Source: a virus. Taken from it: a stretch of DNA of 64,000 nt. The stretch lies in the IMG/VR virus record IMGVR_UViG_3300045988_180399; one strand, given 5' to 3'. Under the pieces are notes generated by a model that worked only from the letters and a program-made list of their open reading frames with translations, ran no database searches and was not told the DNA's origin. Below are positions 39,045 through 63,029 of this stretch, piece after piece. Numbering within the stretch: position 1 is the stretch's first letter; every line of letters begins with the position of its first letter. The translations under genes were made by a program, and so were the position numbers.

Positions 39045-39213
39045 TCTTCGGTTCTCAGGTTCCCAACATTAAAATAGGCGTGTTTCCATATTTGCCGGTA
39101 TGCTCAGAGCATACAAAGGAAGTATCTCAAACACAAAGAAAGTTCAGTCAGCGTCCGTTGCGGATGCTGGCTTTTATATATAAAAAATTCATAAACAAAA
39201 AGGAGAAATGAAC
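39045..39213 (+). promoter_or_regulatory. Conserved structured leader module, copy B
   Basis: GGTTCTCAGGTTCC box; hairpin-1 GTATGCTC-A-GAGCATAC; AAGTATCTCAAACACAAAGAAAGTTCAGTCAGCG; hairpin-2 TCCG-TTGC-CGGA in CAGCGTCCG..CGGATGCTG; GGCTTTTATATATA; AAAAGGAGAAATGAAC ATG. Confidence 0.7.
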
Positions 39214-39579
39214 ATGAAAGCAATGATGTTTAAGAGGGGTTTCGGTGACGAAACAAAGTGGAAAGAGGTCTGCGCGGAGCTTGGGCTGCCGGAAGATACG
39301 GAGCAGGTTGAGTTGTCCGTATCCGCAACAAAGGTCCGTACCAGCCAAAACCGCAGTTGGGAAGCGACCGACGAGGAGATGTCCCGAATTTGGGAACGCC
39401 TCGGCTCGTATTTCTTGCGCTGCGAGAGCATCTCCAGAACGAACATTCGCGTTTTCTGTGGCGGCGGAGATTCCTTTTCCGTTGTTCGCGGCACAACGCA
39501 GCCTGGATTCGTCGAGGTGGATGGACGGCTGATGGACTATGAAGACTTTGAAGCCTGGCTGTACCAGATGGCAGCTTGA
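39214..39579 (+). CDS. hypothetical protein
   Basis: 122 aa. Confidence 0.45.
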   Translation: MKAMMFKRGFGDETKWKEVCAELGLPEDTEQVELSVSATKVRTSQNRSWEATDEEMSRIWERLGSYFLRCESISRTNIRVFCGGGDSFSVVRGTTQPGFVEVDGRLMDYEDFEAWLYQMAA

Positions 39580-39592
39580 GAAAGGAGAAAAC

Positions 39593-40006
39593 ATGAACGC
39601 ACAGGAAAAAATCGACCAGCTTATGCAAGCCGAGATGGAGCATATCCGTTCCGTCGGCGGCATTTTGAATCTGCCGGAGGCCGACAGTGTTCTGAACGAC
39701 CTGAACCGAGAAAAGCTGAAGGCTCTGAAGGAACTGCACGGACATCTCTACCTCGGACGCATCAACATCCACGATACAGCCAAGCGGATTCGTATTGTGG
39801 AAGGAACCGAAGATGTGTACGAGGAAATGCTGGACCAGCCCCTATACAACTTCTGCTGTGATTTTGCCGTGCCCGTCAAGGATAAAACCTTGTCGGATTT
39901 GATTCGTGCTTGGAACGCAAGATTCGCGATTCCCGGTATGAAGGACGCGCAGAAAATCACAGAGCGTGTGGAGCAGGTTGGCGGCATAAATTTGATGTGG
40001 ACTTAA
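39593..40006 (+). CDS. hypothetical protein
   Basis: 137 aa; RBS AAAGGAGAAAAC. Confidence 0.45.
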   Translation: MNAQEKIDQLMQAEMEHIRSVGGILNLPEADSVLNDLNREKLKALKELHGHLYLGRINIHDTAKRIRIVEGTEDVYEEMLDQPLYNFCCDFAVPVKDKTLSDLIRAWNARFAIPGMKDAQKITERVEQVGGINLMWT

Positions 40007-40023
40007 AAAAGGAGAAATGAAAC

Positions 40024-41019
40024 ATGAATAATAGAATCATGCCGAAGTGGAGCGAAGTAAAGGATGTCAATGGCATCAACCTTCACCTGTTCGACGCCGT
40101 ACAGGTCATCACCTCCGGCAACAAGCGCCATAACCAGACGGGCAGAATCATGGCCCTTCTGAAGACCAAGCCTTACCTCCAGATGGTAGAGGTGCTGTTT
40201 CAGGACGAGAAGCGGTCAAATTTCCTTACGTCATCTCTTCGTCTCGTTGAAAGCTCAGAGGAAGAGAAGGGAAAGTCACTGGCAAAAATCGACTCCCTGA
40301 AGCTCATGGGAGCAGAAATCACCGACTCTGATTTCTGCGTTGACCGTTATAATAACGATGCTTTCCTATTTGACGATGAAACGCAGACGTGGAACGTCAT
40401 GCTGGAAGGCATTTCCGATGTGGACCGACTATTCGGAACCTTTTTTGAAACGGAGCAGAACGATTCCTACTGTAACATCTATGCGGATGTAGACGAATAC
40501 TGCACCAAGCTCGCAAAGCCATACCTCACGGTATCTCTGTGGCTCGGTGATGTCTGTGTAGAGGCAGTGCGCCCCTTATCAAAGGACGAGCAGGAAGCAG
40601 TGCTTCGCATCATCCGTCCTACCTACGAGAAGATGGACTACAAGAAGCTCCTGAAGGAGTGGGATGCGGAAGAGCAGAAATATGTGAACAGCATCATGCT
40701 GGAAGACGGCGATGGCTGCTACGGGTACAAATTCGCTGCCGATACCATTGAGGCCGCTAAGGCTGGCTTCCATGAGGTCATCTGGATGGCGATTGAGCTG
40801 AAGCAGTACCGTTCCGGTCAGGATTTCAGCGTCAACTCCTTTATCGAGGACGGTGACGGCAAGTATGTCGAGTCCGACAGGGAAGGCCACATCGTCATCA
40901 ATCGCGTCGTCACAACGCAGGAACCCAGCAAGTATATCAACTGGGAGATGGCTGGCACGCTGCCATTCATCTATACGGTGGACCGCGAGAAGAGCGAGTG
41001 GAAGCTCCACGCGACTTAA
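40024..41019 (+). CDS. hypothetical protein
   Basis: 331 aa; RBS AAAAAGGAGAAATGAAAC. Confidence 0.5.
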   Translation: MNNRIMPKWSEVKDVNGINLHLFDAVQVITSGNKRHNQTGRIMALLKTKPYLQMVEVLFQDEKRSNFLTSSLRLVESSEEEKGKSLAKIDSLKLMGAEITDSDFCVDRYNNDAFLFDDETQTWNVMLEGISDVDRLFGTFFETEQNDSYCNIYADVDEYCTKLAKPYLTVSLWLGDVCVEAVRPLSKDEQEAVLRIIRPTYEKMDYKKLLKEWDAEEQKYVNSIMLEDGDGCYGYKFAADTIEAAKAGFHEVIWMAIELKQYRSGQDFSVNSFIEDGDGKYVESDREGHIVINRVVTTQEPSKYINWEMAGTLPFIYTVDREKSEWKLHAT

Positions 41020-41029
41020 CAACTGAAGC

Positions 41030-41063
41030 GCCGGTGGATGAAAATATCCGCCGGCGCTTTTTC
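41030..41063 (+). terminator. rho-independent terminator
   Basis: GCGCCGG...CCGGCGC + TTTTT. Confidence 0.7.
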
Positions 41064-41089
41064 CATGTTTTGCCACAATCGAGTTCTCA

Positions 41090-41257
41090 TATTCTTAGGT
41101 TCTCAATCAGGAAATAGGTGATTTTTTCTCTTCTGCCGGTATGCTGAAATCATACAAAAGAAGTATCTCAAACACAAAGAAAGTTCAGTCAGCGTCCGTT
41201 GCGGATGCTGGCTTTTATATATAAAAATTTCATAAACAAAAAGGAGAAACGAAAAAA
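41090..41257 (+). promoter_or_regulatory. Conserved structured leader module, copy C
   Basis: Same block order as copy B; 3' 95 nt nearly identical to copy B. Confidence 0.7.
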
Positions 41258-41956
41258 ATGAAGAACAAGGCATATCTCTTACCAGCGTGCAAGACTGCTG
41301 ACGGCGTTCCCATCGGCATTGGCTCCGAGGTGTACGCAATCACCTTTAAGCAGAAAGTCAACAAATACGGTCGGCTGTATCGTCCGTCCACGAGAGAGTT
41401 GGCGGTCGTAAAAGTAACGGTGTCTACTGTGACCTTCTCCGAATTTGTGGAACCCGGTTGGTTTGGCTGGACGGGCGTTGCCTATTCGGGAATGACCGAA
41501 GTCGAATGCTCTGATGGTAAAACGAAGACGTTTTCCTACTTGCCCGGTATCGAGGTCAGCCAGTACACCATCTTCGCATCCGAGGACGCCGCAAAGGCCG
41601 CCTTGGAGAAGGCGGAGGCGGGCGGCGGTCTCTATACGAGAGCCGGATTCCCGTTGATGCCTTCTTGGCAGATTGGCGAGGTACGGGCAGCTCTGGAGAA
41701 AGCTGAGCAGAGCACTGAGGAAGAGCCTTCCATCGTTCGCAACATCCCTTATGTCTCCGTTTGGGACGGCGGAAATTGCATTGCGGCGACAAAGGCAGAC
41801 GTCTGTCTGGACACAAAGCAGGTATTCAACATTCAGACCATTGACGTTGGAGATTCTGTCAATGTTCTGAACCATGAGTACATCGTGCTGCACGGAACAG
41901 AGTATACCGTTTTCCCGAAGGGCGAAGCGAAAGACGGCGCATACTGGCGTGACTGA
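41258..41956 (+). CDS. hypothetical protein
   Basis: 232 aa. Confidence 0.5.
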   Translation: MKNKAYLLPACKTADGVPIGIGSEVYAITFKQKVNKYGRLYRPSTRELAVVKVTVSTVTFSEFVEPGWFGWTGVAYSGMTEVECSDGKTKTFSYLPGIEVSQYTIFASEDAAKAALEKAEAGGGLYTRAGFPLMPSWQIGEVRAALEKAEQSTEEEPSIVRNIPYVSVWDGGNCIAATKADVCLDTKQVFNIQTIDVGDSVNVLNHEYIVLHGTEYTVFPKGEAKDGAYWRD

Positions 41957-41980
41957 CAAAAAAGAAGGAGAATGAGAATT

Positions 41981-42646
41981 ATGACTAATATTAGTGAGAA
42001 AACCACCGGTTCCTGCAAAGACCGCGAGTATATCGTGACAGAGGTCTGCCCGCATTGCGAAGCAGAGGTTGAGATGCGATGGAATGTGGCCGCAGACGGC
42101 TACAAGGCGTTCTGCCCTCATTGCGGCAAGCGGCTGATGCTCTGTGACGCCTGCCAGCATCCGGAGGACAAGTGCGTGGAGAACTGCGATTACAACTCCG
42201 AGACCGATACCTGCCGTCACAATCAGCCTGAACAGGAGCTGAAGGCCGGCGATGTCTGTACCTATGGCTTTGGAACGGAGAATGCTTCCCGTGCCACGGT
42301 CAAAATCATCGAGCTGCTGCCTCGTTCTGAGGCTGCAACCGTGATGTTCCTGAGCGTGGAGAGGGACGATACCGGAAACGGTATGTTCAACTACCTGCTC
42401 AAAACCGGGAATACCATGAATGCCAGCCTGAAATATCTGACGAAGATTGAGTGCAGTTCCGACCAGGAACGGGATAACTACGCCGAACTGGAGAAGCTGT
42501 GTACGGAATGCGACACGGAGTTCTGTGTCTTCAATCCGCACGGCATCTGCAAGCTACCCTTCGTCACCGGAAAGGCTCCGAGACTGGGCGATGACGGCTG
42601 CCAGGACTACGCTATGAAGGATTTCATGATGAAGGAGGATTGCTGA
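41981..42646 (+). CDS. hypothetical protein with N-terminal double zinc-ribbon
   Basis: 222 aa; CPHCEAEV...CPHCGKRLMLCDACQH. Confidence 0.45.
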   Translation: MTNISEKTTGSCKDREYIVTEVCPHCEAEVEMRWNVAADGYKAFCPHCGKRLMLCDACQHPEDKCVENCDYNSETDTCRHNQPEQELKAGDVCTYGFGTENASRATVKIIELLPRSEAATVMFLSVERDDTGNGMFNYLLKTGNTMNASLKYLTKIECSSDQERDNYAELEKLCTECDTEFCVFNPHGICKLPFVTGKAPRLGDDGCQDYAMKDFMMKEDC

Positions 42647-42647
42647 A

Positions 42648-43052
42648 ATGCAGAAGACTTGTCTCAACTGTGCTCATGTGGGCGTGTGCTCCAAGCGGAT
42701 GCAGTTCATCGTGAACAACTATCTCGTCAAAAGACACTACAACGAGATTGAGAATGTCAGCAAAACGCTCGATATCTCCGTGAACTGCGACAGCTATGCA
42801 GAAAAGGATTTCTTTTCGTTCATCTGTGCGCGGGTTCGCGACTATTCCGATGGCGAAGTCTGGAGCGATGCGGACCAGATTCTGTGCAAGACAGAATCTG
42901 CCGCGAACGCGCTGTGCGACCTCCTGTGGCAGCTTTACAACGAACGGGGGGAGGCCTTTGACCTCCACACCGGCTACTACGACCCCAAGGAGGACAAGAA
43001 AAACAACGAAGAGGACCGATACACCGGCTGGTGGTATGTGTCCGCCGACTGA
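42648..43052 (+). CDS. hypothetical protein
   Basis: 134 aa; ATG overlaps upstream stop. Confidence 0.45.
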   Translation: MQKTCLNCAHVGVCSKRMQFIVNNYLVKRHYNEIENVSKTLDISVNCDSYAEKDFFSFICARVRDYSDGEVWSDADQILCKTESAANALCDLLWQLYNERGEAFDLHTGYYDPKEDKKNNEEDRYTGWWYVSAD

Positions 43053-43063
43053 AAGGAGAAAAA

Positions 43064-43267: not shown

Positions 43268-43305
43268 GAATCTACGATTTTTTAACAATAAGGAGAAGTG
43301 AAAAA

Positions 43306-44223: not shown

Positions 44224-44230
44224 TAAAAAA

Positions 44231-44259
44231 GCGCCGCCCGTAATGGACGGCGCTTTTTC
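44231..44259 (+). terminator. rho-independent terminator
   Basis: GCGCCGCCCG-TAAT-GGACGGCGC + TTTTT. Confidence 0.8.
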
Positions 44260-44269
44260 TTTGCAGTTC

Positions 44270-44444
44270 TCCGGTTCTTCAGTTCTCAGGTTCCTGGAAG
44301 GTGAATGCGGCAATTTCCACTTCCGCCGGTATGCTGAGACCATACCAAAGAAGTATCACAAACAAAAAAGAAAGTTCAGTCAGCGCCCGCGTGGGTGCTG
44401 GCTTTTATATATCACATAACCATCACAAAAAAGGAGAAATGAAA
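44270..44444 (+). promoter_or_regulatory. Conserved structured leader module, copy D
   Basis: GGTTCTTCAGTTCTCAGGTTCC; hairpin-1 GGTATG..CATACC; hairpin-2 CAGCGCCCG-CGTG-GGTGCTG (compensatory changes vs copy B). Confidence 0.7.
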
Positions 44445-45191
44445 ATGGAGATTTATGTAAATTACCTCGCCATTGAGGTCACTCGTCGCTGCAACATGAA
44501 ATGCGAACACTGCCTGCGCGGAGATGCGCAAAATCTTGACATCTCAACCGCAGTTCTGTCGGGCATCGCTAAGCATATCCACCCTGCTTCCGTCATTTTC
44601 ACGGGCGGCGAGCCGTCTTTGAATGTTCCGGCCATCAAGCGGTACTTTGAGCTTGCGGAGCGTTATGACACGATGCCGGCTGCTTTCTATGTCGCCACCA
44701 ACGGAGCGACGTCGAAGGAGCAGATGCGCGACCTCGCGCTGACGCTGCTGGAATCGTATGCTAAGATGGAAGAGCAGGATATGTGCGAGGTCGATGTCTC
44801 TGTGGATATGTTCCACGAGGCGTTCCGCGACAATGACAACGCGAAAATTCTGAGCGGCTTGTCCTTCTTCGGCCAGGGTAAACAGCATTCGGTCAAGGAT
44901 GACGATTTGAATTGGCTGTTAAATACCGGACGTGCCAACAAGAACGGCATCGGCGTAAGAGCACCGGAGGTGCTCAGGACCGACATGGACGAGCTGGTAA
45001 CGGATTACTCCACAGAGTACAACAGCATTGCCTTCGATACGCTCTACATTGCCGCAAACGGTAATGTGGTAGACGGCTGTGACAGCAGTTACGAGGATAT
45101 CGACGACGAGGAGAACGTGATTTGCAAGGTCAACCAGCTTCAGAAGAAAGTGAAAGACTATGTGAAGAACGCCGATTCTCAAATCTCATAA
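44445..45191 (+). CDS. radical SAM enzyme (small, QueE/activase-like size)
   Basis: 249 aa; CNMKCEHC (CxxxCxxC) cluster motif at residues 15-22; SAM-binding glycine motif IFTGGEPSL. Confidence 0.65.
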   Translation: MEIYVNYLAIEVTRRCNMKCEHCLRGDAQNLDISTAVLSGIAKHIHPASVIFTGGEPSLNVPAIKRYFELAERYDTMPAAFYVATNGATSKEQMRDLALTLLESYAKMEEQDMCEVDVSVDMFHEAFRDNDNAKILSGLSFFGQGKQHSVKDDDLNWLLNTGRANKNGIGVRAPEVLRTDMDELVTDYSTEYNSIAFDTLYIAANGNVVDGCDSSYEDIDDEENVICKVNQLQKKVKDYVKNADSQIS

Positions 45192-45203
45192 GGAGGGCTG
45201 AAG

Positions 45204-46634: not shown

Positions 46635-46662
46635 TTTTCTTGACTTGAAAGGAGACAGAAGC

Positions 46663-48204: not shown

Positions 48205-48210
48205 ACCTGA

Positions 48211-48243
48211 GCGCCGCCCCTTTGTGGGCGGCGCTTTTTCTTT
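48211..48243 (+). terminator. rho-independent terminator
   Basis: GCGCCGCCC-CTTTGT-GGGCGGCGC + TTTTTCTTTTT. Confidence 0.8.
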
Positions 48244-48264: not shown

Positions 48265-48438
48265 TTGAGGTTCCTCGGTTCTTAGGTTCCAATTTGCAAA
48301 ATGCGGAGTTTTCCGTGCCTGCCGGTATGCTGAGACCATACAAAAGAAGTATCACAAACACAAAGAAAATTCAGTCAGCGTCCATACGGATACTGGCTTT
48401 TATATATCAAAAAAATTTCAAAAAAGGAGAATTAAAAA
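48265..48438 (+). promoter_or_regulatory. Conserved structured leader module, copy E
   Basis: GAGGTTCCTCGGTTCTTAGGTTCC; GCCGGTATGCTGAGACCATACAAAAGAAGTATCACAAACACAAAGAAAATTCAGTCAGCG; hairpin-2 TCC-ATAC-GGA; GGCTTTTATATAT. Confidence 0.7.
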
Positions 48439-48984
48439 ATGGAAAAAATGATTCAAATTGCAGAAAGCTACGGATGGGCAGTCGATATGGACAGCGATAG
48501 CATCGAATTTAACCAGTGCAGTCCGGCGGGGGAAGATTTCTCCTTCACGGTTCTGACGAAAGACGCATCTGACGCCGAGAGTCTTGCAGCCGAAGTCCGT
48601 TCTTACGCGGACAGCTTCGATACCGAGGAACACGTCAAGATGTTGGTCGATGCGCAGGGCAGCGTGAGTGGTGTGCCAGACATCAAGACGTTGGTGGAAG
48701 ACGCTGACGCCATCCAAGAGATGCTCAACGACCTTGCTGACGCTCTTGAAAATGGCGACGCCAACACAGATGACGAGGAGACTGAAGCCTGCGGCCTCGA
48801 AGGCACTTACGAGTGGCTTCTGAACAACTTCGACATCGACGGCACGGCGGGTCGCATTATCCACAATGTTTTGGAGTATGCCGACCGCATGACTGGCGAC
48901 GAGCAGTATGAGTTCTTGACGGAGATGCTGGATGGAACGATTGGTCTGTCTGACCGCGAAATCAGGAATCTCTGCTGGAACTGA
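48439..48984 (+). CDS. highly acidic hypothetical protein (candidate DNA-mimic type)
   Basis: 181 aa; >25% D/E, no basic patches. Confidence 0.45.
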   Translation: MEKMIQIAESYGWAVDMDSDSIEFNQCSPAGEDFSFTVLTKDASDAESLAAEVRSYADSFDTEEHVKMLVDAQGSVSGVPDIKTLVEDADAIQEMLNDLADALENGDANTDDEETEACGLEGTYEWLLNNFDIDGTAGRIIHNVLEYADRMTGDEQYEFLTEMLDGTIGLSDREIRNLCWN

Positions 48985-48999
48985 GTGGGGGATAACCCT

Positions 49000-52603: not shown

Positions 52604-52794
52604 TGCAAAATCCTGCAAAACAGCGCATACGGTGCGTACAACCTCATGTGCTACAATCCTGACACGGGCTGCGGCGTGGTCGTACTTACCTCCGGAGCCA
52701 GCGGAAAGAAAGATACCGCCGGCATCTACGCTGTGTGCGGAGAAATCAGTAACCTGCTTTTTGGCGCAAACCCCTGAATTATCTTTCCGGAACA

Positions 52795-52828
52795 GAAGCG
52801 TCGCCCATCACGGGCGACGCTTTTCTTT
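52795..52828 (+). terminator. rho-independent terminator (second, tandem)
   Basis: AGCGTCGCCC-ATCAC-GGGCGACGCT + TTTCTTTG. Confidence 0.7.
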
Positions 52829-53004
52829 GTGGTTCTTTGGTTCTCAGGTTCCTTGAAATAGAATAAAGCGTTTTCTTCATCCGCCGGTATGCTGAGACCA
52901 TACAAAGGAAGTATCACATACATAAAGAAAGTTCAGTCAGCATCCCTTGCGGATGCTGGCTTTTATATATCACCTAATAATTCACGAAAAGGAGAAATGA
53001 AAAA
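52829..53004 (+). promoter_or_regulatory. Conserved structured leader module, copy F
   Basis: GGTTCTTTGGTTCTCAGGTTCC; hairpin-1; hairpin-2 perfect CAGCATCC-CTTGC-GGATGCTG; GGCTTTTATATAT; AAAAGGAGAAATGAAAAA ATG. Confidence 0.7.
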
Positions 53005-54201
53005 ATGAGCAACAAGATTTTTGACGATTTCCAAGAAATGTTCCATGACGAGTCGGAATTTATCGACTCTATCCGGGACATGGAAAACAACAGTGAGTGG
53101 CTCCCCGAAATCCCTCGCAAAGAGCTTCAGGTCATTCCTCTGGATGGGCCGATGTTCGTAGCGGACGCTGTGGCAAAGTATGGCGTTGACCATGATACGG
53201 CACATGATACCGCCGTCAACGATTTGCATGGTGGTTACGGTACGAACCTCATGGTTCAGTATCAGGGCACGACCTGGTGCCTGCGTGATACCGGTCGTGC
53301 GACACTCTACACCACCGCCGGTTTGATTGGACCCGCCAATGCGAACATGGTGAAAGCGGAAGGGTTTGCCGACCTTGCGCAGTGCTTGAATATCGCTCTG
53401 CGGTATGCCAAGGGAAACGGGCTTCTCCTGCTGCGTTATGGCAAACTGTCCGCGCTGCACAGCGGCGCATCCGACGGTTACGCTATAATGCGCATCAGCG
53501 AGTTGGTCCGTATCACAAAGGAGAAGCTGAACAACCGATTCGGCGTCCCGAAGTTCAAGGAAGGGTTCAATTCCCATAGCTATACCAGCGCTGTCTGGGA
53601 GTTGCCCGACGTCCGAGACGAACTCATTGATAAGTACCAGAAGGCGCTATCGAACGCAGTCTCTCGGAATCACGCCATCAACTGGATTCCTGTTGTCCGT
53701 CTGTCTACCAGCGACACGGCGACCAGTTCGGCGATTCTGATGCCGAAGCTGATGTCCCCCGGCGGTTCCTTCTCCTTTGCCATTGGAAAGGGAATCCGTG
53801 TCGAGCACAAGAAGCAGGCGGCAGGGAAGTACGGCCTGGAGAAATTTGAGGACGAAGCGGGCGGACTGTATGCGCTATTTGAGGATGGCGCAGCAATGAT
53901 GCAGAAGATGGGAAGCATGGAAATTTCCAATCCCGTCAACTGCCTCGTTGGCATCTGCTCCTACCTGAAAATCCCCAGAAAGTATGCTGACCCTGCGCGT
54001 GAAGAAGTTGATACCTTTGCTATCAACTCCCCGCGTATGTCTGCGCTGGACATCTACCTGAGCATGGCACAAATTCCCACCTACGCCAAGCACGCAGGTG
54101 CGAGCGATGCGAAGGTTCTGGAGTTGGAAGAGCTTATCGGAAAGACGCTGAACCTCAACTGGTCCGATTATGACATCGGTGGAACAGTTGCTTGGAAGTA
54201 A
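53005..54201 (+). CDS. hypothetical protein (size/position compatible with DUF932-type plasmid leading-region protein; unverified)
   Basis: 398 aa. Confidence 0.45.
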   Translation: MSNKIFDDFQEMFHDESEFIDSIRDMENNSEWLPEIPRKELQVIPLDGPMFVADAVAKYGVDHDTAHDTAVNDLHGGYGTNLMVQYQGTTWCLRDTGRATLYTTAGLIGPANANMVKAEGFADLAQCLNIALRYAKGNGLLLLRYGKLSALHSGASDGYAIMRISELVRITKEKLNNRFGVPKFKEGFNSHSYTSAVWELPDVRDELIDKYQKALSNAVSRNHAINWIPVVRLSTSDTATSSAILMPKLMSPGGSFSFAIGKGIRVEHKKQAAGKYGLEKFEDEAGGLYALFEDGAAMMQKMGSMEISNPVNCLVGICSYLKIPRKYADPAREEVDTFAINSPRMSALDIYLSMAQIPTYAKHAGASDAKVLELEELIGKTLNLNWSDYDIGGTVAWK

Positions 54202-58180: not shown

Positions 58181-58184
58181 AAAG

Positions 58185-58225
58185 CTGCGCGTCTTCCTGA
58201 AAAAGGAGGACGCGCAGTTTTTTTG
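58185..58225 (+). terminator. rho-independent terminator
   Basis: CTGCGCGTCTTCC..GGAGGACGCGCAG + TTTTTTT. Confidence 0.75.
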
Positions 58226-58264
58226 TATAATTTTTGCCTTTTTGGATATTCAGTCAGAAATAAA

Positions 58265-58293
58265 TTGACTAATAGGTGTATATGTGGGATAAT
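58265..58293 (+). promoter_or_regulatory. sigma-A type promoter TTGACT-N17-TGTGGGATAAT
   Basis: -35 58265-58270, -10 58288-58293. Confidence 0.6.
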
Positions 58294-58336
58294 ATATAGA
58301 GCGGAACCCCAAAAATTTTGAAAGGAGAAATTTTGC

Positions 58337-60757
58337 ATGAATAGGAAAAACCGTGTGTGTTCCGCCGCACTCTCGGCAGTTCTGACGCTTACGCTGGTCA
58401 CAGCACCGGCACAAGCTCTCGGCACTGCTGGGGCGGAGAGGACAGAAGGAGACTATGCCGTAATGCAGGCCGTGTCCGGCCCCAGTATCGGCGAAATCGA
58501 CAGCAGCGGCATCATCTACAACGGAAAAGCACAGACGCCGACGCCAAAAATCACAGTGGGCGGCATGGAACTGGTTGCTGGTACTGACTTCCGGATGGAA
58601 TACAGCAACAATGTTCACGCCGGCACGGGAATTGCGTACATTCTCGGAATGGGGAAGTATGCAGGGTATGTTGACAGCTGTGAGTTCACCATTCACCCCG
58701 CTCAGTTAGTCGTGAAGGTGGACGATGTGCAGGATGTCAAGGACCCGGCCTCCTACACCTACACGATTCTTCAGGGAACACTTGCTTCCGGAGATTCGCT
58801 TGGACAGCCGCAGTATTCCGTGAAGGATAACGGGAACCGCACCAAGACGGTCAGCGCGACCTTCCAGGACAACGCCGATTACGAAATCACGGTTCTGCCC
58901 GGTACTCTGACGATTGTCCAAACGCTCGGCACCGTCGTTATCAGCGGCCCGTCCAATGTCTTCTACAACGGCAGTGCTCAGACGCCGAAGCCCACCGTTC
59001 AGGACGCTTCCACCGGAAAGACGCTGACAGAGGGACGGGACTACAATCTCGTTTACCGCAACAACGTCAATGCTGGCAAGGCCAGCGTCACCATCAACGG
59101 AATCGGCAGCTACAGCAAGGTCAGCGAGGTGCGTGAGTTCACCATCCAGGCAGCTCCCATCACGGTGCGCATCCGCGACGTGCGTTGCAGCATCCGAGAT
59201 ACCGACCCGACCTTCCGCTATGACATCACCAGCGGCAGCCTCGCCCCCGGCGACAGCCTCGGTTCGCCTCGTTATTCCGTCTATTCCAAGACGGGCTACT
59301 CTTATGGCCCGTACTTTGGCATCCGTGCGGAATTCCCCGTGAACCCGAATTATGCTATTACGGTTCGTGAAGGAACAATGACCTACTATGATGTCAAGGT
59401 CGATGATGACGTCATTAGCACGGACTTCCGCGTGGTTGTCAATGATGTCTACTATAACGGCACCTACCAGGAGCCGACGGTAAAGGTCTATGACCGCTAT
59501 AACAACCGTCTGACGGAAGGCGAGGACTACACTCTGAGCTTCTCCAACAACAGACAGGTTGGCACGGCAACCGTCTTTGTTACCGGCATCAATAGTTACC
59601 GAGGCTCGTATGCCACGGAGCATTTCGAAATTCTTTCCAATCACTCCAAACCGACGAATGACCGGTATACCATCGACGCTTCCGCTTCCGATGGCGGCCG
59701 CATTTCTCCGTCTGGCACGAATACCGTGCGGGATGGTGCGGATAAGACTTTCAACTTCTATGCGAACAGTGGCTATGAGATTATCGGCGTCTATGTCGAT
59801 AACGAGTATGTCGGAACCAAGAGCAGCTACACCTTCCGCGATGTCAGCGAGGACCACGAGATTTACGTTGAGTTCGCAAAGCGTAATTCCTCTAACTCCA
59901 GATATGACATCACCATTCGCTCCAGCTATGGCGGTACGGTAACGCCCAATGACAGCGGCAGTGTCACCGTTGCCAGAGGAAATAGCCGCACGTTCTACTT
60001 TGAACCCGATGCAGGCTATCGGATTTCTGCCGTTTATGTGGACGGTTCTCTGGTTTCCACCCGCAACAATCAGTACACCTTCACCAACGTCAGAGATGAC
60101 CACCGCCTCGACGTGGAGTTCACCAGAATCAACGGGTACTGGGACAATGCCGGCAACTGGTATCCCGGTGGACCGAACCATGACTGGACTCCGGGCTGGA
60201 AGAATCCGTACTATGACGTGAGCAACTCTGCATGGTACTACAATGAGCTGTGCTACATGACTTCTCGCGGCATCGTCAACGGTGTGTCCAATGACGTATT
60301 CTCCCCGAACACGCCCGTTTCTCGCGGTGAGCTGGTTCTGCTCCTGTACCGTATCTGCGGAAGCCCAAATCCCGGACGTCACACCTACTTCAACGATGTC
60401 GCTGCTTCCTCTCCCTTTGCTCATGCAATCTACTGGGCTGCGGAGAACGGCATTGTCACCGGCTACGGTGATAACTCCTTTAAGCCGTATGCCGCCGTTA
60501 CTCGTGAGCAGGCAGCCGCTATCCTGTACCGCTACGCTACCTACCGTGGCTTCGCTTACTATCAGGAGACTGGCGTGCTGAACGCTTACGCTGATTTCTA
60601 CGCGGTTTCTTCTTACGCCGTTCGCCCGCTGAGCTGGGCAGCGACCAATGGCATTGTCGTGGGGCAGTCGAACCAAACGCTTGGTCCGCAGTACCACATG
60701 ACGAGAGCTGAAACCATTGTCATGCTCTATCGCTTCTGCACCATGTTCGGCCAGTGA
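58337..60757 (+). CDS. large cell-surface protein: signal peptide, repeated ~90-aa beta-rich domains, Listeria-Bacteroides-type repeats, three C-terminal SLH domains
   Basis: 806 aa; signal peptide ...APAQALG; internal repeats (FYNGSAQTPKPTV...); repeats RYTIDASASDGG.../RYDITIRSSYGG...; three SLH motifs (..FSPNTPVSRGELVLLLYR / FNDVAASSPFAHAIYWAAENGIVTGYGDNSFKPYAAVTREQAAAILYRY / ..MTRAETIVMLYRF). Confidence 0.7.
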   Translation: MNRKNRVCSAALSAVLTLTLVTAPAQALGTAGAERTEGDYAVMQAVSGPSIGEIDSSGIIYNGKAQTPTPKITVGGMELVAGTDFRMEYSNNVHAGTGIAYILGMGKYAGYVDSCEFTIHPAQLVVKVDDVQDVKDPASYTYTILQGTLASGDSLGQPQYSVKDNGNRTKTVSATFQDNADYEITVLPGTLTIVQTLGTVVISGPSNVFYNGSAQTPKPTVQDASTGKTLTEGRDYNLVYRNNVNAGKASVTINGIGSYSKVSEVREFTIQAAPITVRIRDVRCSIRDTDPTFRYDITSGSLAPGDSLGSPRYSVYSKTGYSYGPYFGIRAEFPVNPNYAITVREGTMTYYDVKVDDDVISTDFRVVVNDVYYNGTYQEPTVKVYDRYNNRLTEGEDYTLSFSNNRQVGTATVFVTGINSYRGSYATEHFEILSNHSKPTNDRYTIDASASDGGRISPSGTNTVRDGADKTFNFYANSGYEIIGVYVDNEYVGTKSSYTFRDVSEDHEIYVEFAKRNSSNSRYDITIRSSYGGTVTPNDSGSVTVARGNSRTFYFEPDAGYRISAVYVDGSLVSTRNNQYTFTNVRDDHRLDVEFTRINGYWDNAGNWYPGGPNHDWTPGWKNPYYDVSNSAWYYNELCYMTSRGIVNGVSNDVFSPNTPVSRGELVLLLYRICGSPNPGRHTYFNDVAASSPFAHAIYWAAENGIVTGYGDNSFKPYAAVTREQAAAILYRYATYRGFAYYQETGVLNAYADFYAVSSYAVRPLSWAATNGIVVGQSNQTLGPQYHMTRAETIVMLYRFCTMFGQ

Positions 60758-60761
60758 ACCG

Positions 60762-60982
60762 CTGGGGTTCTTGAGTTCTCAGGTTCCGAACAGACAGGTT
60801 TTGAAAATTGAAAATCGTAGGGTATGATGGCGTTACATTAAAGAAGTATCTCTCATGAAATTGACTTGATACTTCGCTGGGACAAGCGCATTCGGAACTG
60901 TCCGCAGGGAAGAATCGCTTGTCCCATTTTTTTAATGTGCAAGCTACAACCACAAAAATTATTTCGAAAAGGAGAAAAAATC
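60762..60982 (+). promoter_or_regulatory. Divergent copy G of leader module (5' half conserved; 3' half replaced by TTGACT box and long hairpin+T7)
   Basis: GGTTCTTGAGTTCTCAGGTTCC ... GTAGGGTATGATGGCGTTACATTAAAGAAGTATC; then GAAGTATC..TTGACT..GATACTTC inverted repeat; GGGACAAGCG...CGCTTGTCCC+T7 at 60879-60934; RBS AAAAGGAGAAAAAATC ATG. Confidence 0.55.
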
Positions 60983-61633
60983 ATGTCTGAGTACACCAAC
61001 AACCTGAACGTCGTCTCCACCTACAAGGGCGAAAAGAGCGTCAGCATCACCGGCACGTTCCAGTGCGGCATTCACTTCCCCAAGAGTGGGGCAAAGCCGT
61101 TCAAGGTCATCGAGCGCACATCCAAGAACAACAAGCAGTACAAGCAGATTGCCTGTACTGTTGTTATCTCCCCGGATGACCGCAAGAACAACAACGGCAA
61201 TCCTTTCTCTTCTGTCTATTACGATGGGAAGTACCTGACCTTCAAGGAGTTCCTGGAAACCACCGGCGTCGAGCTTATCAAGGGCAAGCTGTATGCCGGC
61301 GTGTTCATGGACCGCAGCACGATGGGCCTGTATCAGGTCATGGGCGACCCCAATTTGACCTTCAAGCAGAACATCGTTCTCTCCGGCGAACTGTCCGTCT
61401 ATACGGATAAGGAAGGGAAGAAGCGTGCCGCTTTCGGCCGCGTGTCCCTGTTTGCCAAGGACCATGTGGGAGCCGATAAGGTGGAAAAAGAGAACGCAAA
61501 CGTCATGCTGGAGAGCGGCGGCAACGCGCAGGCGTCCGGCGGTAGTCCTGCCGCATACGCTTCCGCAGCGCCCGCTATGAACGATGACGGCTTTATCGAC
61601 ATCTCTGATGATGACGGTGAGCTGCCGTTCTGA
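60983..61633 (+). CDS. single-stranded DNA-binding protein-like (OB-fold) with SSB-type acidic C-terminal tail
   Basis: 216 aa; G/S/A-rich linker and C-terminus ...ISDDDGELPF resembling SSB DDDIPF protein-interaction tail. Confidence 0.5.
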   Translation: MSEYTNNLNVVSTYKGEKSVSITGTFQCGIHFPKSGAKPFKVIERTSKNNKQYKQIACTVVISPDDRKNNNGNPFSSVYYDGKYLTFKEFLETTGVELIKGKLYAGVFMDRSTMGLYQVMGDPNLTFKQNIVLSGELSVYTDKEGKKRAAFGRVSLFAKDHVGADKVEKENANVMLESGGNAQASGGSPAAYASAAPAMNDDGFIDISDDDGELPF

Positions 61634-61651
61634 TTCGGCACATACAATGCA

Positions 61652-61686
61652 AGGAGACACCGATTTCTCGGTGTCTCCTTTGTTGT
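61652..61686 (+). terminator. rho-independent terminator
   Basis: AGGAGACACCG-ATTTCT-CGGTGTCTCCT + TTGTTG. Confidence 0.65.
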
Positions 61687-61710
61687 AAAAACTTTTTAGG
61701 GAGATGCAAC

Positions 61711-62256
61711 ATGAAGGAGAAAGAACCCAAAATTGCCTCATTTCGGAATGCTACGACCATCTATATGGGCCATGCAAACGGACAGGACGGGGAGTGGGAC
61801 CTGTTTTACAGCGTACATTTCGAGGACCGTTCCGCCGAAAGAAAATGCTCCGTTGAGAAAGCTGGAATTATCCTTGGCACCATTTTCGAAGACGCCATCT
61901 TCGCCGATAAGGTCTCCGAGGATATCGTGCTGTCCCGTGCTTCTCGCCGCCAGTCTTACGACTATGTTGAGAAGCGGCAGCGTTTTCAGATTCTGGACAT
62001 GGTGAACAAGGTTTCTTTCATCCTGGAATTGTATCCGAGAACGAAGGAAATCTACGCCATCACAGTCCTCACACAGGACAGAGAGGCCATCAATAAAAAA
62101 AGAAATACCGTTGTCATAAAGATTCTTCCGGCTGTTGAGCGGGAGGATGTCGTGGAATCAAAAGTTGTCTATTATGATTACGACTTGCGCATCCGGGCAT
62201 TCAAGAAACTGTACGAGCAGGTTATGGATGCGTCCTGCCTGCCTTGCGAAGATTGA
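61711..62256 (+). CDS. hypothetical protein
   Basis: 181 aa; RBS AGGGAGATG. Confidence 0.45.
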   Translation: MKEKEPKIASFRNATTIYMGHANGQDGEWDLFYSVHFEDRSAERKCSVEKAGIILGTIFEDAIFADKVSEDIVLSRASRRQSYDYVEKRQRFQILDMVNKVSFILELYPRTKEIYAITVLTQDREAINKKRNTVVIKILPAVEREDVVESKVVYYDYDLRIRAFKKLYEQVMDASCLPCED

Positions 62257-62295
62257 GTTGCCACAGCAGAAAGAATCACACAACACGACACATCA

Positions 62296-62325
62296 ACAGG
62301 GCAGCATAGCTGCCCTGTTTTTTTG
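62296..62325 (+). terminator. rho-independent terminator (between convergent genes)
   Basis: ACAGGGCAGC-ATA-GCTGCCCTGT + T8. Confidence 0.75.
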
Positions 62326-62343
62326 CGTATTGATGAAAAAAGA

Positions 62344-62661
62344 TTATTCGAACAACTCCCCCTCCTCGTCAGCGAGTGTCTTTAGATACTTGAACACCGT
62401 CTCAAACGAATCAGGCGAGTGGTCATACTCTGTAATATGGTTGAGCGCAAAGTAAGGTTCAACCATATTCACAACCATGAAGATGGGTAGGTGGTTGTCC
62501 TGTGCGAGTTTCACAATGCGTTCTCGGCGCTCAGGCAGTAAAAAGATATCGTCGATGAACCCGCACAGGGCGTAGAACTCGTTGTCATCAGGTGTGAGGG
62601 GAGCAACTGGCAGATTGGCAGCCTCCGGTATATCGTGGCCGGAAAAAAACTTCTTGTTCAT
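62344..62661 (-). CDS. hypothetical protein (only minus-strand gene in the array)
   Basis: 105 aa; acidic C-terminus; convergent with 61711..62256. Confidence 0.45.
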   Translation of the reverse strand: MNKKFFSGHDIPEAANLPVAPLTPDDNEFYALCGFIDDIFLLPERRERIVKLAQDNHLPIFMVVNMVEPYFALNHITEYDHSPDSFETVFKYLKTLADEEGELFE

Positions 62662-62857
62662 AAAAACCTCCGCAAAAAAGAAATATGGTGAATGGACACA
62701 GTTTCACAAAGAACTGTCCATCCACCATATTATTGAAGGGGAGAAATGAAAAAAATGATGCAAACGTGTTATCCATCGTTGCAAGCATATTATACCAAAT
62801 TTGCATTAAAAAGTCAATCCAATTTTGAGGATTCCCAGAAAACCATTCCAATTCGCA

Positions 62858-63029
62858 AGAATTCTTGGGTTCTTGGGTTCCTTGTGCAAAAATGGGCCAT
62901 TCCTCATATTTGTCGGTATGCTAAGAACATACCAAGGAAGTATCACAAACAAAAAGAAAGTTCAGTCAGCGGTTATAGACCATTGGCTTTTATATAAATA
63001 AACAGCTATTGTAAAGGAGAAATGAAAAA
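62858..63029 (+). promoter_or_regulatory. Conserved structured leader module, copy H
   Basis: TTCTTGGGTTCTTGGGTTCC; hairpin-1 GGTATG-CTAAGAA-CATACC; AAGTATCACAAACAAAAAGAAAGTTCAGTCAGCG; GGCTTTTATATAAATA; AAAGGAGAAATGAAAAA ATG. Confidence 0.65.

What the first reader, a model, noticed from the sequence alone, without database searches (positions are those of the whole stretch)
39045..63029. Array of cassette-like operons, each headed by the same ~170-bp conserved leader module and closed by a strong terminator
From 39 kb to the window end there are at least 7 unidirectional transcription units. Each begins with a nearly identical ~170-bp non-coding module: copies B-H at 39045, 41090, 44270, 48265, 52829, 60762 and 62858. 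An eighth, 5'-truncated copy occupies positions 1-118. Each unit ends in a GC-rich hairpin plus T-run terminator. The module is conserved right through to the RBS (AAAGGAGAAATGAAAAA-ATG). The cargo behind each copy is unrelated: small unknown proteins, a radical SAM enzyme, a YqaJ-like exonuclease, a RecD2-like helicase, an SSB-like protein and an HD hydrolase. This looks like a modular, recombinogenic gene array. It is reminiscent of plasmid leading-region, anti-defence or establishment islands whose genes share a common promoter type, but the element itself matches nothing I recognise as described. It is not an integron attC: the conserved part is the whole 5' UTR plus RBS, not an imperfect inverted repeat at the 3' end of a cassette.
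Basis: seen in the sequence. Interest (0 to 1): 0.88.

Follow-up and report, generated by a model that had tools for sequence, protein, structure and literature searches.

The report
Repeated promoter and attenuator leader module
A ~170-bp block that heads at least 18 operons of a large conjugative element from a gut Oscillospiraceae bacterium is a shared promoter plus a leader RNA with its own terminator hairpin. It matched no curated RNA family and no annotated plasmid or phage, and it probably lets the element switch many gene sets on together.

Summary
The repeat is real. There are seven full copies plus one copy cut by the window start, all on the + strand, and each sits directly in front of a ribosome-binding site and ATG. 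It is not one long 5' UTR.

The upstream half is promoter DNA:
- three 8-bp-spaced GGTTCY boxes;
- no -35 element;
- a weak -10, TATGCT.

The downstream half is a ~100-nt leader:
- an invariant A(A/G)GAAGTATC box about 5-10 nt after the inferred start site;
- a G-poor linker;
- a covarying hairpin followed at once by a U-run, which is an intrinsic-terminator shape;
- then the RBS.

A closely related genome, Oscillospiraceae CM18GR_63, carries 18 copies across 144 kb. Human-gut metagenomes hold a large, diverged family with the same leader behind consensus TTGAC-N17-TGnTAnnAT promoters. In both lineages the modules lie downstream of an element-encoded SigA-like sigma factor.

My best reading (confidence about 0.5) is a regulon-wide promoter plus transcription-attenuator module. 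Read-through would depend on an unidentified factor acting at the box.

Rfam, PLSDB and INPHARED gave no match. The ssDNA-promoter, attC/MITE and riboswitch readings are not supported. Evidence for cassette shuffling is weak.

The parts
1..118 (+). Module A, cut by the window start. It begins inside the -10 (CGGTATGCT). Box at 22-31, leader hairpin ~51-75, T-run, SD, ATG at 119. It heads a unit with an unknown 315-aa protein, an ERF recombinase and a primase-like protein.
   Evidence: The full copy is seen in the related genome locus L007. Pfam and NCBIfam.
37766..38938 (+). Element-encoded primary-like (SigA/RpoD family) sigma factor, 390 aa. It is the last gene of a consensus-promoter operon and lies just upstream of the first module. 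Its operon terminator is at 38941-38968.
   Evidence: Pfam r2 + r4. PDB SigA hits at E~1e-50; the region 2.4 and 4.2 contact residues look kept when the alignment is read by eye. NCBIfam hits are below all equivalog cut-offs. Homologues at 35-37% identity sit ~1 kb upstream of a module in diverged loci L195, L151 and L110.
36077..36724 (+). 215-aa protein with only a sigma region-4-type HTH. It is my candidate (inferred, not shown) for the factor that binds the GGTTCY boxes.
   Evidence: Pfam Sigma70_r4 only, with no region 2. The NCBIfam hit covers region 4 only. No PDB sequence hit. No homologue within 7.6 kb upstream of sigma in diverged locus L151.
39044..39216 (+). Module B. GGTTCY boxes 39050-39063, -10 TATGCT 39099-39104, box 39117-39126, leader hairpin 39146-39172 followed by T-run, SD 39201, ATG 39214. 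The unit ends at a terminator ~41026-41063.
41085..41260 (+). Module C. -10 41140-41145, box 41158-41167, hairpin 41187-41213, SD 41242, ATG 41258. The unit ends at a terminator ~44225-44262.
44265..44447 (+). Module D. GGTTCY-like boxes 44265-44294, -10 44330-44335, box 44348-44357, hairpin 44378-44403, SD 44432, ATG 44445 (radical SAM protein). The unit ends at terminator 48209-48236.
48269..48441 (+). Module E. Boxes 48269-48290, -10 48326-48331, box 48344-48353, hairpin ending ~48397, SD 48425, ATG 48439. The unit ends at terminator 52794-52824.
52831..53007 (+). Module F. Boxes 52831-52852, -10 52888-52893, box 52906-52915, hairpin 52935-52961, SD 52990, ATG 53005. The unit includes the YqaJ/NERD nuclease and the RecD2-like helicase and ends at a 20-bp-stem terminator 58179-58223.
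60766..60985 (+). Module G, the diverged copy. Boxes 60766-60787, -10 TATGAT 60823-60828, box 60841-60850. The box is paired with GATACTTC at ~60866-60873. Terminator GGGACAAGCG...CGCTTGTCCC plus T7 at ~60879-60933, SD 60970, ATG 60983 (SSB-like protein). The unit ends at terminator 62295-62319.
62860..63032 (+). Module H. Boxes 62860-62881, -10 62917-62922, box 62935-62944, hairpin ~62964-62987, SD 63015, ATG 63030. The next ORF (~63428 onward) carries an HD motif.
30913..30945 (+). One of the second promoter class, with no leader: AATTGAC-N17-TGTGGTATAAT. Others are at 13121, 26185 and 58265. This one drives the operon that ends with the two sigma-like genes. It is the same promoter type that heads the modules in the diverged lineage.
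   Evidence: (family D3)

Best explanation
Each copy is a self-contained promoter-plus-attenuator module that places one operon under a control shared by the whole element. The factor that relieves the attenuator is not identified.

**Shown from sequence and comparison**
- The upstream half is double-stranded promoter DNA. It has a -10 hexamer TATnnT (TATGCT) and no -35. Upstream lie three 8-bp-spaced GGTTCY boxes, at about -70 to -49 from the inferred start site.
- The downstream half has the shape of a leader RNA. An invariant box A(A/G)GAAGTATC sits at a fixed distance from the -10. A G-poor, unstructured linker follows. Then comes a 9-15-bp hairpin whose sequence is free to vary while pairing is kept, followed directly by a U-run.
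- An A/U-rich spacer and a strong SD/ATG lie 12-26 nt after the U-run.

**Inferred**
- Transcription starts about 7 nt after the -10.
- Most RNA polymerases stop at the leader terminator, giving a short RNA of about 60-90 nt. The operon is expressed only when the terminator is read through.
- Read-through is set by a trans-acting factor that recognises the box. This could be a protein loaded close to the promoter, an RNA-binding protein, or the 30S ribosomal subunit.
- In the window's lineage, initiation also depends on a factor bound to the GGTTCY boxes. The candidate is the neighbouring 215-aa region-4-type HTH protein.
- The element's own SigA-like sigma is encoded just upstream of the array and made from a leaderless consensus promoter. 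It is the likely polymerase specificity factor.
- The result would be a phage-like cascade. Consensus promoters make sigma and regulators, which then switch on at least 18 module-headed operons together.
For: **The module is a real repeat**
- 8 copies in the window and 18 in the related genome, all co-oriented with the genes.

**Promoter assignment**
- In the diverged lineage the position homologous to CCGGTATGCT is TGGTATAAT, with TTGAC 17-18 nt upstream.
- Window variants TATGCT, TATACT and TATGAT keep T-12, A-11, T-10 and T-7.
- In one copy the GGTTCY boxes occur inverted (GGAAC). That fits a duplex-DNA protein site, not an RNA element.

**Hairpin**
- In 22 leaders, 96.7% of cells are paired and 7 of 10 pairs show double (compensatory) changes. 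0 of 500 shuffles reach these values, and slid controls give 29-48% pairing.
- In 53 distinct stems there are 82 G.U pairs against 11 A.C mismatches. That places the structure on the + (mRNA) strand.
- Mean folding energy is -16 kcal/mol, and the T-run starts right after the stem in nearly all of the 53.
- The terminator scan flags these hairpins.

**Fixed geometry in 39 non-redundant diverged modules**
- -10 to box: 13-15 nt, with 32 of 39 at exactly 14.
- Box to T-run: 56-66 nt.
- T-run to SD: 12-26 nt in 37 of 39.

**Other support**
- No other conserved fold appears in 22 representative leaders.
- Synteny of a sigma homologue followed by a module holds at 35-37% protein identity.
- Both sigma-like genes lie in a consensus-promoter operon that ends 76 bp before module B.
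- Precedents for terminator-plus-antiterminator logic in Gram-positive conjugative elements: PMC11658703 and PMC8191782.
Against: - There are no expression data. The start site and termination at the hairpin are inferred from sequence alone.
- No antiterminator gene was identified. No NusG, Q, ANTAR or BglG-type domain turned up in about 65 window proteins scanned.
- No alternative antiterminator pairing is conserved.
- The hairpins look like efficient terminators, so without a factor the operons would be nearly silent.
- About half of the window copies have AAAGAAG rather than AAGGAAG. This weakens the reading of the box as a ribosome- or CsrA-type site.
- The linker is G-poor and lacks the TNYG pause consensus expected downstream of a sigma-dependent pause element.
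- At least one natural copy, in L008, lacks the hairpin.
Confidence: 0.5

Rival explanations
1. It is a standardised high-expression cassette, not a switch. The 5'-proximal purine box would act as an SD-like (STAB-SD type) 5' stabiliser that binds 30S subunits. The hairpin would stabilise or insulate the mRNA, perhaps after RNase processing. The A/U- and CA-rich spacer would enhance translation. Termination at the hairpin would be partial and unregulated.
For: - The box resembles the extended SD complement of the 16S 3' end (AAAGGAAGUAUC against AAAGGAGGUGAUC; comparison done by hand).
- The rare variant AAGGGAGTATC moves it closer to a true SD.
- The box sits at a fixed short distance from the inferred 5' end.
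- The SD lies 12-26 nt after the hairpin, with a conserved TATATACACAAAC spacer.
- Diverged-lineage promoters are consensus and carry no obvious operator.
- In copy G the box lies in a 5'-proximal hairpin, the other known class of 5' stabiliser. The stabiliser classes are recalled from memory: Agaisse & Lereclus 1996; Hue et al. 1995.
Against: - The central A (GGAAG, not GGAGG) and the GTATC tail are almost invariant. Selection for 16S pairing would not explain that.
- Half of the window copies have AAAGAAG, a poor SD.
- A stabilising hairpin needs no U-run, yet the T-run follows the stem directly in nearly all of 53 stems.
- The hairpin is not at the 5' end.
Confidence: 0.2
2. The modules are genes for abundant short RNAs (box as a 5' seed, linker, terminator hairpin with U-tail). 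These RNAs would act in trans, for example as ligands or decoys for a FinO/ProQ- or Hfq-type chaperone or for a host factor. Downstream genes would be expressed merely by leaky read-through.
For: - The layout of 5' conserved single-stranded box, unstructured linker and terminator with U-tail is that of a base-pairing sRNA.
- Promoters in the diverged lineage are very strong.
- The element encodes a protein with a Phage_ProQ_C_like domain (27735-28178) and an S1-domain protein.
Against: - Nearly every copy is tightly coupled to an SD/ATG 12-26 nt downstream, with no room for a second promoter.
- 18 near-identical seeds in front of unrelated operons are hard to explain as trans regulators.
- A purine-rich seed would not target SD sequences.
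- No complementary target was found in the window. The box search covered both strands and returned only + strand hits.
Confidence: 0.08
3. The module is a recombination or mobility site (attC-like, MITE-like or HUH-nuclease hairpin site) that bounds mobile gene cassettes.
For: - The hairpin has conserved flanks (TTCAG...GGCTTTTATATA).
- Some relatives show differences next to modules. There is an extra ~660-bp module plus small gene between E and F (L057, L059), a variable 3' end of unit E, and a B unit with a different upstream flank or a chimeric module (L067, L181).
Against: - Gene order is otherwise identical in dozens of independent contigs.
- No integrase or HUH nuclease was detected among the scanned proteins.
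- No terminal inverted repeats or target duplications are present.
- Every copy has the same orientation and carries a promoter and an RBS.
- The G.U versus A.C asymmetry points to RNA, not DNA.
- The observed variation is what homologous recombination between 170-bp repeats would give.
Confidence: 0.04
4. It is a single-strand DNA signal of a plasmid leading region: an Frpo-like ssDNA promoter or a single-strand origin used just after transfer.
For: - The element is conjugative.
- The cargo includes SSB-like, ERF, primase-like and nuclease/helicase genes typical of establishment regions.
- Leading-region genes are one-directional and can use ssDNA promoters (PMC11541004, PMC9849209).
Against: - Folding the whole module as DNA gives no long promoter-forming hairpin on either strand. 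The z-score is weak in 7 of the 8 copies (+0.9 to -1.7). One copy from the related genome reaches about -3, driven mostly by the terminator stem.
- The homologous promoters in the diverged lineage are ordinary duplex consensus promoters.
- The only stable hairpin carries G.U pairs on the coding strand.
- Modules are spread over 144 kb, not gathered beside an oriT.
Confidence: 0.04

Closest known systems
Lambdoid late-gene control: pR' promoter, sigma-dependent pause element, tR' terminator and Q antiterminator (lambda, phage 82)
   Same: - A strong promoter is followed by a conserved element at a fixed position in the initially transcribed region.
- An intrinsic terminator then makes a short abortive RNA, and the genes lie behind it.
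- The box AGGAAGTAT partly copies the module's own extended -10 (tGGtAnnAT).
- In phage 82 the -10-like element, with an extended -10, lies at about +9 to +14 (PMC5001585).
- The regulator-like gene (here sigma) sits just upstream.
   Different: - There are 18 or more copies per element, not one.
- No Q-like gene or Q-binding element was found.
- The TNYG pause consensus downstream of the element is absent (PMC9191641).
- Operon-end terminators would have to resist a processive factor.
- The hosts are Clostridia.
Tn916 terminator T1 with the canT antiterminator, and the pLS20 conAn1/conAn2 system
   Same: Both are Gram-positive conjugative elements that place terminators in front of or inside their operons and bypass them with an element-specific antitermination device (PMC11658703, PMC8191782, PMC8955417).
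   Different: - Those systems occur once per element, at the head of one long operon.
- They act processively.
- They rely on a structured RNA (canT, conAn2).
- Here the leader upstream of the terminator is unstructured, the device is repeated per operon, and the units contain no internal terminators.
Global plasmid regulons with repeated operators (RK2 KorA/KorB; the omega heptads of Inc18 plasmids) and activator-dependent late promoters lacking a -35 (for example TP901-1 Plate/Alt). Recalled from memory.
   Same: - A short DNA box is repeated in tandem upstream of many promoters of one element.
- The boxes occur in direct or inverted orientation, and the -35 is missing or weak.
- This matches the GGTTCY x3 part of the window's modules.
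   Different: - The binding protein is unknown here.
- The 8-bp register and the sequence differ.
- The boxes are fused to a conserved leader with a terminator, which those systems lack.
STAB-SD and polypurine 5' mRNA stabilisers of Bacillus (recalled from memory)
   Same: A purine-rich SD-like sequence lies a few nucleotides from the 5' end of the mRNA, far upstream of the real RBS.
   Different: The box is invariant beyond the SD-like core (GTATC). It is often a poor SD (AAAGAAG). It is followed by a terminator-shaped hairpin.

Membership tests
Intrinsic (Rho-independent) terminator acting as a 5' leader attenuator | Stable stem-loop followed directly by a U-run on the transcribed strand | tested here: met
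   53 distinct stems of 9-15 bp, mean -16 kcal/mol, T-run directly after the stem in nearly all. 82 G.U pairs against 11 A.C mismatches. Covariation: 7 of 10 pairs, 0 of 500 shuffles. Flagged by the terminator scan.
Intrinsic (Rho-independent) terminator acting as a 5' leader attenuator | Lies between the transcription start and the start codon | tested here: inconclusive
   The position follows from the inferred -10 and start site, which rest on homology to consensus promoters in the diverged lineage. No 5'-end data exist.
Intrinsic (Rho-independent) terminator acting as a 5' leader attenuator | Mutually exclusive antiterminator structure, or a defined factor that prevents termination | tested here: not met
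   No conserved alternative pairing in 6-sequence alifold or in 22 single folds. No known antiterminator domain among about 65 scanned proteins.
Intrinsic (Rho-independent) terminator acting as a 5' leader attenuator | Measured termination and regulated read-through | not testable with these tools
   Needs Term-seq, in vitro transcription or reporter assays.
Sigma-70/SigA-type promoter | -35 TTGACA, 16-18 bp spacer, -10 TATAAT | tested here: met
   Diverged lineage: TTGAC-N17/18-TGnTAnnAT in 39 of 39 non-redundant modules selected with that promoter pattern. Window lineage: only the -10 (TATGCT, TATACT or TATGAT) is kept, and there is no -35.
Lambdoid Q-type late control (pR'-SDPE-tR') | A -10-like sigma-dependent pause element in the initially transcribed region | tested here: inconclusive
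   AAGTAT keeps A-11, A-8 and T-7, is preceded by GG, and sits at a fixed 13-15 nt from the -10. The TNYG pause consensus downstream is absent in the G-poor linker.
Lambdoid Q-type late control (pR'-SDPE-tR') | A Q protein gene and a Q-binding element | tested here: not met
   No Q-family Pfam hit in the window proteins. Only 64 kb of an element of at least 144 kb was examined.
Cis-acting processive antiterminator RNA (put, EAR, canT) | Conserved structured RNA upstream of the terminator(s) | tested here: not met
   The leader between box and terminator is G-poor and has no conserved fold.
Frpo/ssi-type ssDNA promoter of plasmid leading regions | Long imperfect hairpin in the single strand that rebuilds -35 and -10 boxes | tested here: not met
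   DNA-parameter folds of both strands of 8 copies give z between +0.9 and -1.7 in 7 copies. One related-genome copy reaches about -3. No long promoter-forming hairpin appears in any.
Integron attC / MITE / IS | Imperfect inverted repeat with R/L boxes at the cassette 3' end plus an integrase; or terminal inverted repeats plus a target duplication | tested here: not met
   The module lies at the 5' end of units, carries a promoter and RBS, and always has one orientation. No integrase or transposase domain was found. Synteny is largely fixed.
Any Rfam 15 family (riboswitch, leader, sRNA, ribozyme) | Score at or above the family gathering threshold | tested here: not met
   0 hits at gathering thresholds over the whole window. 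In E-value mode on module F the best hit scored 21.8 bits against a threshold of 50, and it lay on the upstream operon terminator.
STAB-SD-type 5' stabiliser | 5'-proximal sequence strongly complementary to the 16S rRNA 3' end | tested here: inconclusive
   AAGGAAGUAUC can form about 10 bp with one mismatch and one bulge (checked by hand). About half of the window copies have AAAGAAG. The host 16S sequence was not examined.

The most novel reading that the evidence does not exclude
A family of large conjugative elements in gut Clostridia would run almost their whole accessory genome through one new kind of switch. Each of 18 or more operons starts at a promoter read by the element's own SigA-like sigma factor, and RNA polymerase is stopped about 60-90 nt later at a built-in terminator. 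Only polymerases that were modified at the invariant promoter-proximal box A(A/G)GAAGTATC read through. The modifying factor could be a Q-like protein, the retained element sigma, or a 30S subunit bound to the SD-like box that blocks hairpin folding. Polymerases arriving from upstream would always be stopped. This would be a repeated, promoter-coupled antitermination insulator with no described counterpart.
Probability: 0.25. Interest if true: 0.8.

Novelty: new variant of a known kind. Interest (0 to 1): 0.6.

Why it matters
- The element is extremely common in human-gut metagenomes. More than 8000 near-identical sigma sequences were found, on contigs up to 200 kb.
- The leader family occurs in many diverged relatives, yet it is absent from Rfam and from the annotated plasmid and phage collections searched.
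- If the module is a regulon-wide attenuator, it shows how very large conjugative elements of uncultured Clostridia coordinate dozens of genes of unknown function, possibly establishment or anti-defence genes.
- It offers a compact, testable promoter-box-terminator unit for studying antitermination in Firmicutes.
- It gives a sequence signature (box plus hairpin plus TTTTATATA) for finding and delimiting these elements and their operons in metagenomes.
- It also explains assembly breaks: 170-bp repeats fragment short-read assemblies of these elements.

Tried and rejected
**No match or no support**
1. Rfam at gathering thresholds (whole window) and in E-value mode (module F): nothing.
2. Megablast and blastn of the array and of single modules against PLSDB and INPHARED: no match.
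3. ssDNA-promoter idea: whole-module DNA folds give weak z-scores in 7 of 8 copies and no long promoter-forming hairpin in any.
4. Antiterminator/terminator alternative pairing: ATGCTGA upstream resembles the 3' arm, but it does not covary in copies with other stems.

**Readings I dropped**
5. The first 'hairpin' GGTATG-N7-CATAC as an RNA element: rejected. It overlaps the -10, its variants break the pairing, and its homologue is TGGTATAAT.
6. nAnAAT at about -40 as the -10, or an ECF-type promoter (GGTTCC-N17-rTTT) read by the 215-aa protein. I disfavour both: the protein has no sigma region 2, two copies lack the rTTT, and TATnnT is invariant.
7. RfaH ops-like match (GCCGGTATGCTG): dropped once that sequence proved to be the -10.
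8. Leader peptide starting at the ATG in GGTATGCT: rejected. There is no SD, the ATG lies in the -10, and the frame is not kept because hairpin lengths differ by non-multiples of 3.
9. CsrA site (AAACAAGGAAGU against the SELEX consensus RUACARGGAUGU, recalled from memory): weakened by the AAAGAAG copies, and no CsrA gene was found.

**Searches that led nowhere**
10. The Hodor megaplasmid paper: no mention of sigma factors, promoters or repeats.
11. The Subdoligranulum variabile 215-kb plasmid has a 37% identical sigma homologue, but no box within 40 kb of it.
12. PHROGs, NCBIfam and PDB sequence searches of cargo and large unknown proteins: no functional names.
13. Two IMG/VR pattern scans gave mostly chance hits apart from L043.

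Full report

Yes. The direct-repeat search finds a 180-nt family at 39044, 41085, 44275, 48271, 52833 and 62862. A 61-nt core also occurs at 1-61. Alignment adds a diverged copy at about 60762.

An HMM of six copies recovers all eight, at E values from 1e-57 down to 1e-4. A covariance model of the leader, scored over the whole window with filters off, gives seven hits of 84-95 bits, all on the + strand. The next best hit scores 21 bits.

The two short signature motifs are essentially confined to the modules:
- ARGRAGTATC: 9 matches against 0.29 expected. Eight are in modules and one is inside a gene, at 63183.
- GGTTCYNNRGTTCY: 8 matches against 0.08 expected.

Each copy runs into AAAGGAGA...ATG.

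Most units end in GC-rich terminators: 38941-38968, about 41026-41063, about 44225-44262, 48209-48236, 52794-52824, 58179-58223 and 62295-62319. No terminator separates the SLH-domain gene from module G. That gene has its own consensus promoter at 58265.

**2. What the window is**

The window belongs to a large conjugative element. Pfam finds:
- a T4SS coupling protein (10106-12382);
- a VirB4/TraG-like ATPase (15418-17910);
- pilins (3501-4649);
- a CHAP/lysozyme protein;
- ERF, UvrD, UDG, NERD and flotillin proteins.

Just upstream of the first module lie two sigma-like genes. One is a 215-aa protein with only a region-4 HTH (36077-36724). The other is a 390-aa, full-length SigA/RpoD-like sigma (37766-38938). 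When I read the alignment to solved SigA structures by eye, the usual -10 and -35 contact residues are kept (FWIRQNITRA; LTRERVRQ).

This sigma has more than 8000 near-identical relatives in metagenomes, on contigs up to about 200 kb.

A strict module pattern hits one GTDB species only, Oscillospiraceae bacterium CM18GR_63. It matches 12 times on one strand of a 570-kb contig, between 232 and 376 kb. The window is 98-99% identical to part of that contig. With the HMM and a looser regular expression, that genome shows 18 modules, so the module also heads units upstream of window position 1.

**3. Anatomy**

I anchored 18 copies on GTATGCT. From 5' to 3' they show:
- a preceding operon terminator;
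- GGTTCTnnGGTTCTnnGGTTCC, a triple box in 8-bp register;
- a poorly conserved stretch of about 35 nt (rAATgnG, TTTy);
- CCGGTATGCTGAGACCATAC;
- A(A/G)GAAGTATCACAAACA;
- AAAGAAAGTTCAG, then a hairpin, then GGCTTTTATATAT;
- an A-rich spacer, then AAAGGAGAAATGAAAAAATG.

In one copy (L007) the boxes are inverted, as GGAACTCAGGAAC. That argues for a protein site on duplex DNA rather than an RNA element.

**4. The key comparison**

Pattern scans of IMG/VR and of metagenome contigs uncovered a diverged lineage. It was first seen in L043, then in dozens of human-gut contigs of 90-190 kb.

These contigs share 30-49% identical homologues of several window proteins. One is the sigma factor (35-37% identity), which again lies about 1 kb upstream of a module.

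Their modules read:

AATTTGAC-N17/18-(A)TGGTAnnAT - 13-15 nt - AAGGAAGTATC - G-poor linker - TTCAR + hairpin - CTTTTTATATATACACAAAC - 12-26 nt - AAGGAGG-ATG

The position homologous to the window's CCGGTATGCT is therefore the extended -10 of a consensus SigA promoter. So in the window TATGCT is the -10. Its variants TATACT and TATGAT keep T-12, A-11, T-10 and T-7.

The inferred start site is about 7 nt downstream. The 'first hairpin' GGTATG...CATAC is promoter DNA, not RNA. The window lineage has lost the -35 and the TG motif and gained the GGTTCY boxes. That is the signature of a factor-dependent promoter.

The window also keeps leaderless consensus promoters of the ancestral type (AATTGAC-N17-TGTGGTATAAT) at 13121, 26185, 30913 and 58265. 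The one at 30913 drives the operon that encodes both sigma-like proteins.

**5. The leader**

Only one structure is conserved: the hairpin next to the U-run.
- In 22 window-lineage leaders, 96.7% of cells are paired and 7 of 10 pairs show compensatory double changes. No shuffle out of 500 reaches the observed values, and slid controls give 29-48% pairing.
- Across 53 distinct stems from both lineages, stems are 9-15 bp with a mean of -16 kcal/mol. The T-run follows the stem directly in nearly all.
- There are 82 G.U pairs against only 11 A.C mismatches. The structure is therefore selected on the mRNA strand.

This is the shape of an intrinsic terminator. It sits roughly 45-90 nt after the inferred start site and 12-26 nt before the SD.

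The box keeps a fixed distance from the -10: 11-12 nt in all window-lineage copies, and 13-15 nt in the diverged lineage, with 32 of 39 at exactly 14. With an anchor that does not require the box, 41 of 43 leaders have GAAGTATC and 2 have GGAGTATC.

**6. Mechanism**

The best-supported reading is a promoter-plus-attenuator module shared by a regulon. Polymerase would start at the module promoter and stop at the leader terminator unless a factor acting through the box allows read-through.

In the window lineage, initiation would also need a GGTTCY-binding factor. The neighbouring 215-aa HTH protein is a candidate. It has no sigma region 2, and no homologue appears near sigma in a diverged locus whose modules have a normal -35.

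What reads the box is unresolved.
- **Sigma-dependent pause element.** AGGAAGTAT partly copies the module's own extended -10 (G-14, G-13, A-11, A-8, T-7). Its position resembles the -10-like element of phage 82 pR', at about +9 to +14 with the pause at +25/26 (PMC5001585). However, the G-poor linker lacks the TNYG pause consensus (PMC9191641), and no Q-like gene was found.
- **SD mimic.** The box also resembles an extended SD, but half of the window copies read AAAGAAG.
- **RNA-level role.** In copy G the box is perfectly paired with GATACTTC about 15 nt downstream. This hints at an RNA-level function.

Candidate RNA-binding proteins in the window are an S1-domain protein (13204-14457) and a Phage_ProQ_C_like protein (27735-28178). 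None of these links is shown.

**7. Rival readings**
- A constitutive 'expression cassette' (stabiliser plus enhancer) fits the SD-like box and the conserved spacer. It does not explain the obligatory U-run.
- Trans-acting sRNA genes fit the RNA layout. They do not fit the tight coupling to an RBS in front of 18 unrelated operons.
- A recombination or cassette site is disfavoured by largely fixed synteny (sigma-B-C-D-E-F-G-H in dozens of contigs). The exceptions are a few module-adjacent indels and chimeric modules, as expected from homologous recombination between repeats.
- An ssDNA promoter or single-strand origin is disfavoured by the lack of any long promoter-forming DNA fold and by the G.U asymmetry.

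**8. Comparison with known systems**

The logic resembles four known systems:
- lambdoid pR'-tR'/Q control;
- the terminator-plus-antiterminator devices of Tn916 (T1/canT, PMC11658703);
- the pLS20 conAn system (PMC8191782);
- for the GGTTCY boxes, global plasmid operators.

It differs in four ways. It is repeated once per operon. Its leader is unstructured. It has an invariant 10-nt box at a fixed distance from the promoter. It is associated with an element-encoded primary-like sigma.

It is not a member of any Rfam family. Its sequence is absent from PLSDB and INPHARED. Literature searches found no description.

**9. Verdict**

I rate the finding as a new variant of a known kind (promoter plus leader attenuator). 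Its interest is moderate to high, because the family is widespread in the human gut, undescribed, and directly testable.

Noticed in passing
window 13121-13165, 26185-26229, 30913-30957, 58265-58293: A second, leaderless promoter class (AATTGAC-N17-TGnTATAAT, conserved beyond the hexamers) heads the T4SS, regulator and SLH-protein operons. It is the same promoter type that heads the modules in the diverged lineage.
   Followed up: partly
window 62344-62661 (-), promoter 62817-62789 (-): The only convincing minus-strand gene in the array. It encodes 105 aa with no family hit and is driven by an 11/12 consensus promoter with TG. It is divergent from module H and could be a regulator.
   Followed up: no
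window 27735-28178 (+): A 147-aa protein that matches Pfam Phage_ProQ_C_like (36 bits, above the cut-off). It may be an RNA-chaperone-type protein, in an element full of terminator-hairpin leaders.
   Followed up: no
window 13204-14457 (+): A 417-aa protein with a single S1 RNA-binding domain. It is the first gene behind a consensus promoter, and the rest of the protein matches nothing.
   Followed up: partly
window 58179-58223 (+): An unusually long (20-bp stem) terminator closes unit F. Long stems have been reported to resist processive antitermination in pLS20 (PMC10325885).
   Followed up: no
window 58337-60757 (+): An 806-aa surface protein with three SLH domains and InlB-B/MBG repeats sits inside the array under its own promoter. 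No terminator lies between it and module G.
   Followed up: no
L057 6803 and 7463; L059 3923 and 4581: Relatives carry an extra module plus a small gene (~660 bp) inserted between units E and F. The 3' end of unit E also varies in length among relatives (unit length 5.7-6.2 kb against 4.6 kb in the window).
   Followed up: partly
L008 ~4551-4651 (-): One module copy in the related genome has the boxes, the -10 and the A(A/G)GAAGTATC box but no leader hairpin. It is a natural 'terminator-less' variant that would be useful as a control.
   Followed up: no
window 17639-17683 and 22606-22650: A 45-nt two-copy direct repeat at 73% identity (TCGGAAACGCCAAAATC...GCGCAGCGAAAAAGAGG) lies in the T4SS region. 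I did not examine it, and it may be a chance match.
   Followed up: no
one search hit list (contig lengths): Many metagenome contigs that carry the sigma gene are about 6.7-6.9 kb long. This suggests that short-read assemblies of this element break at the repeated promoters and modules.
   Followed up: no
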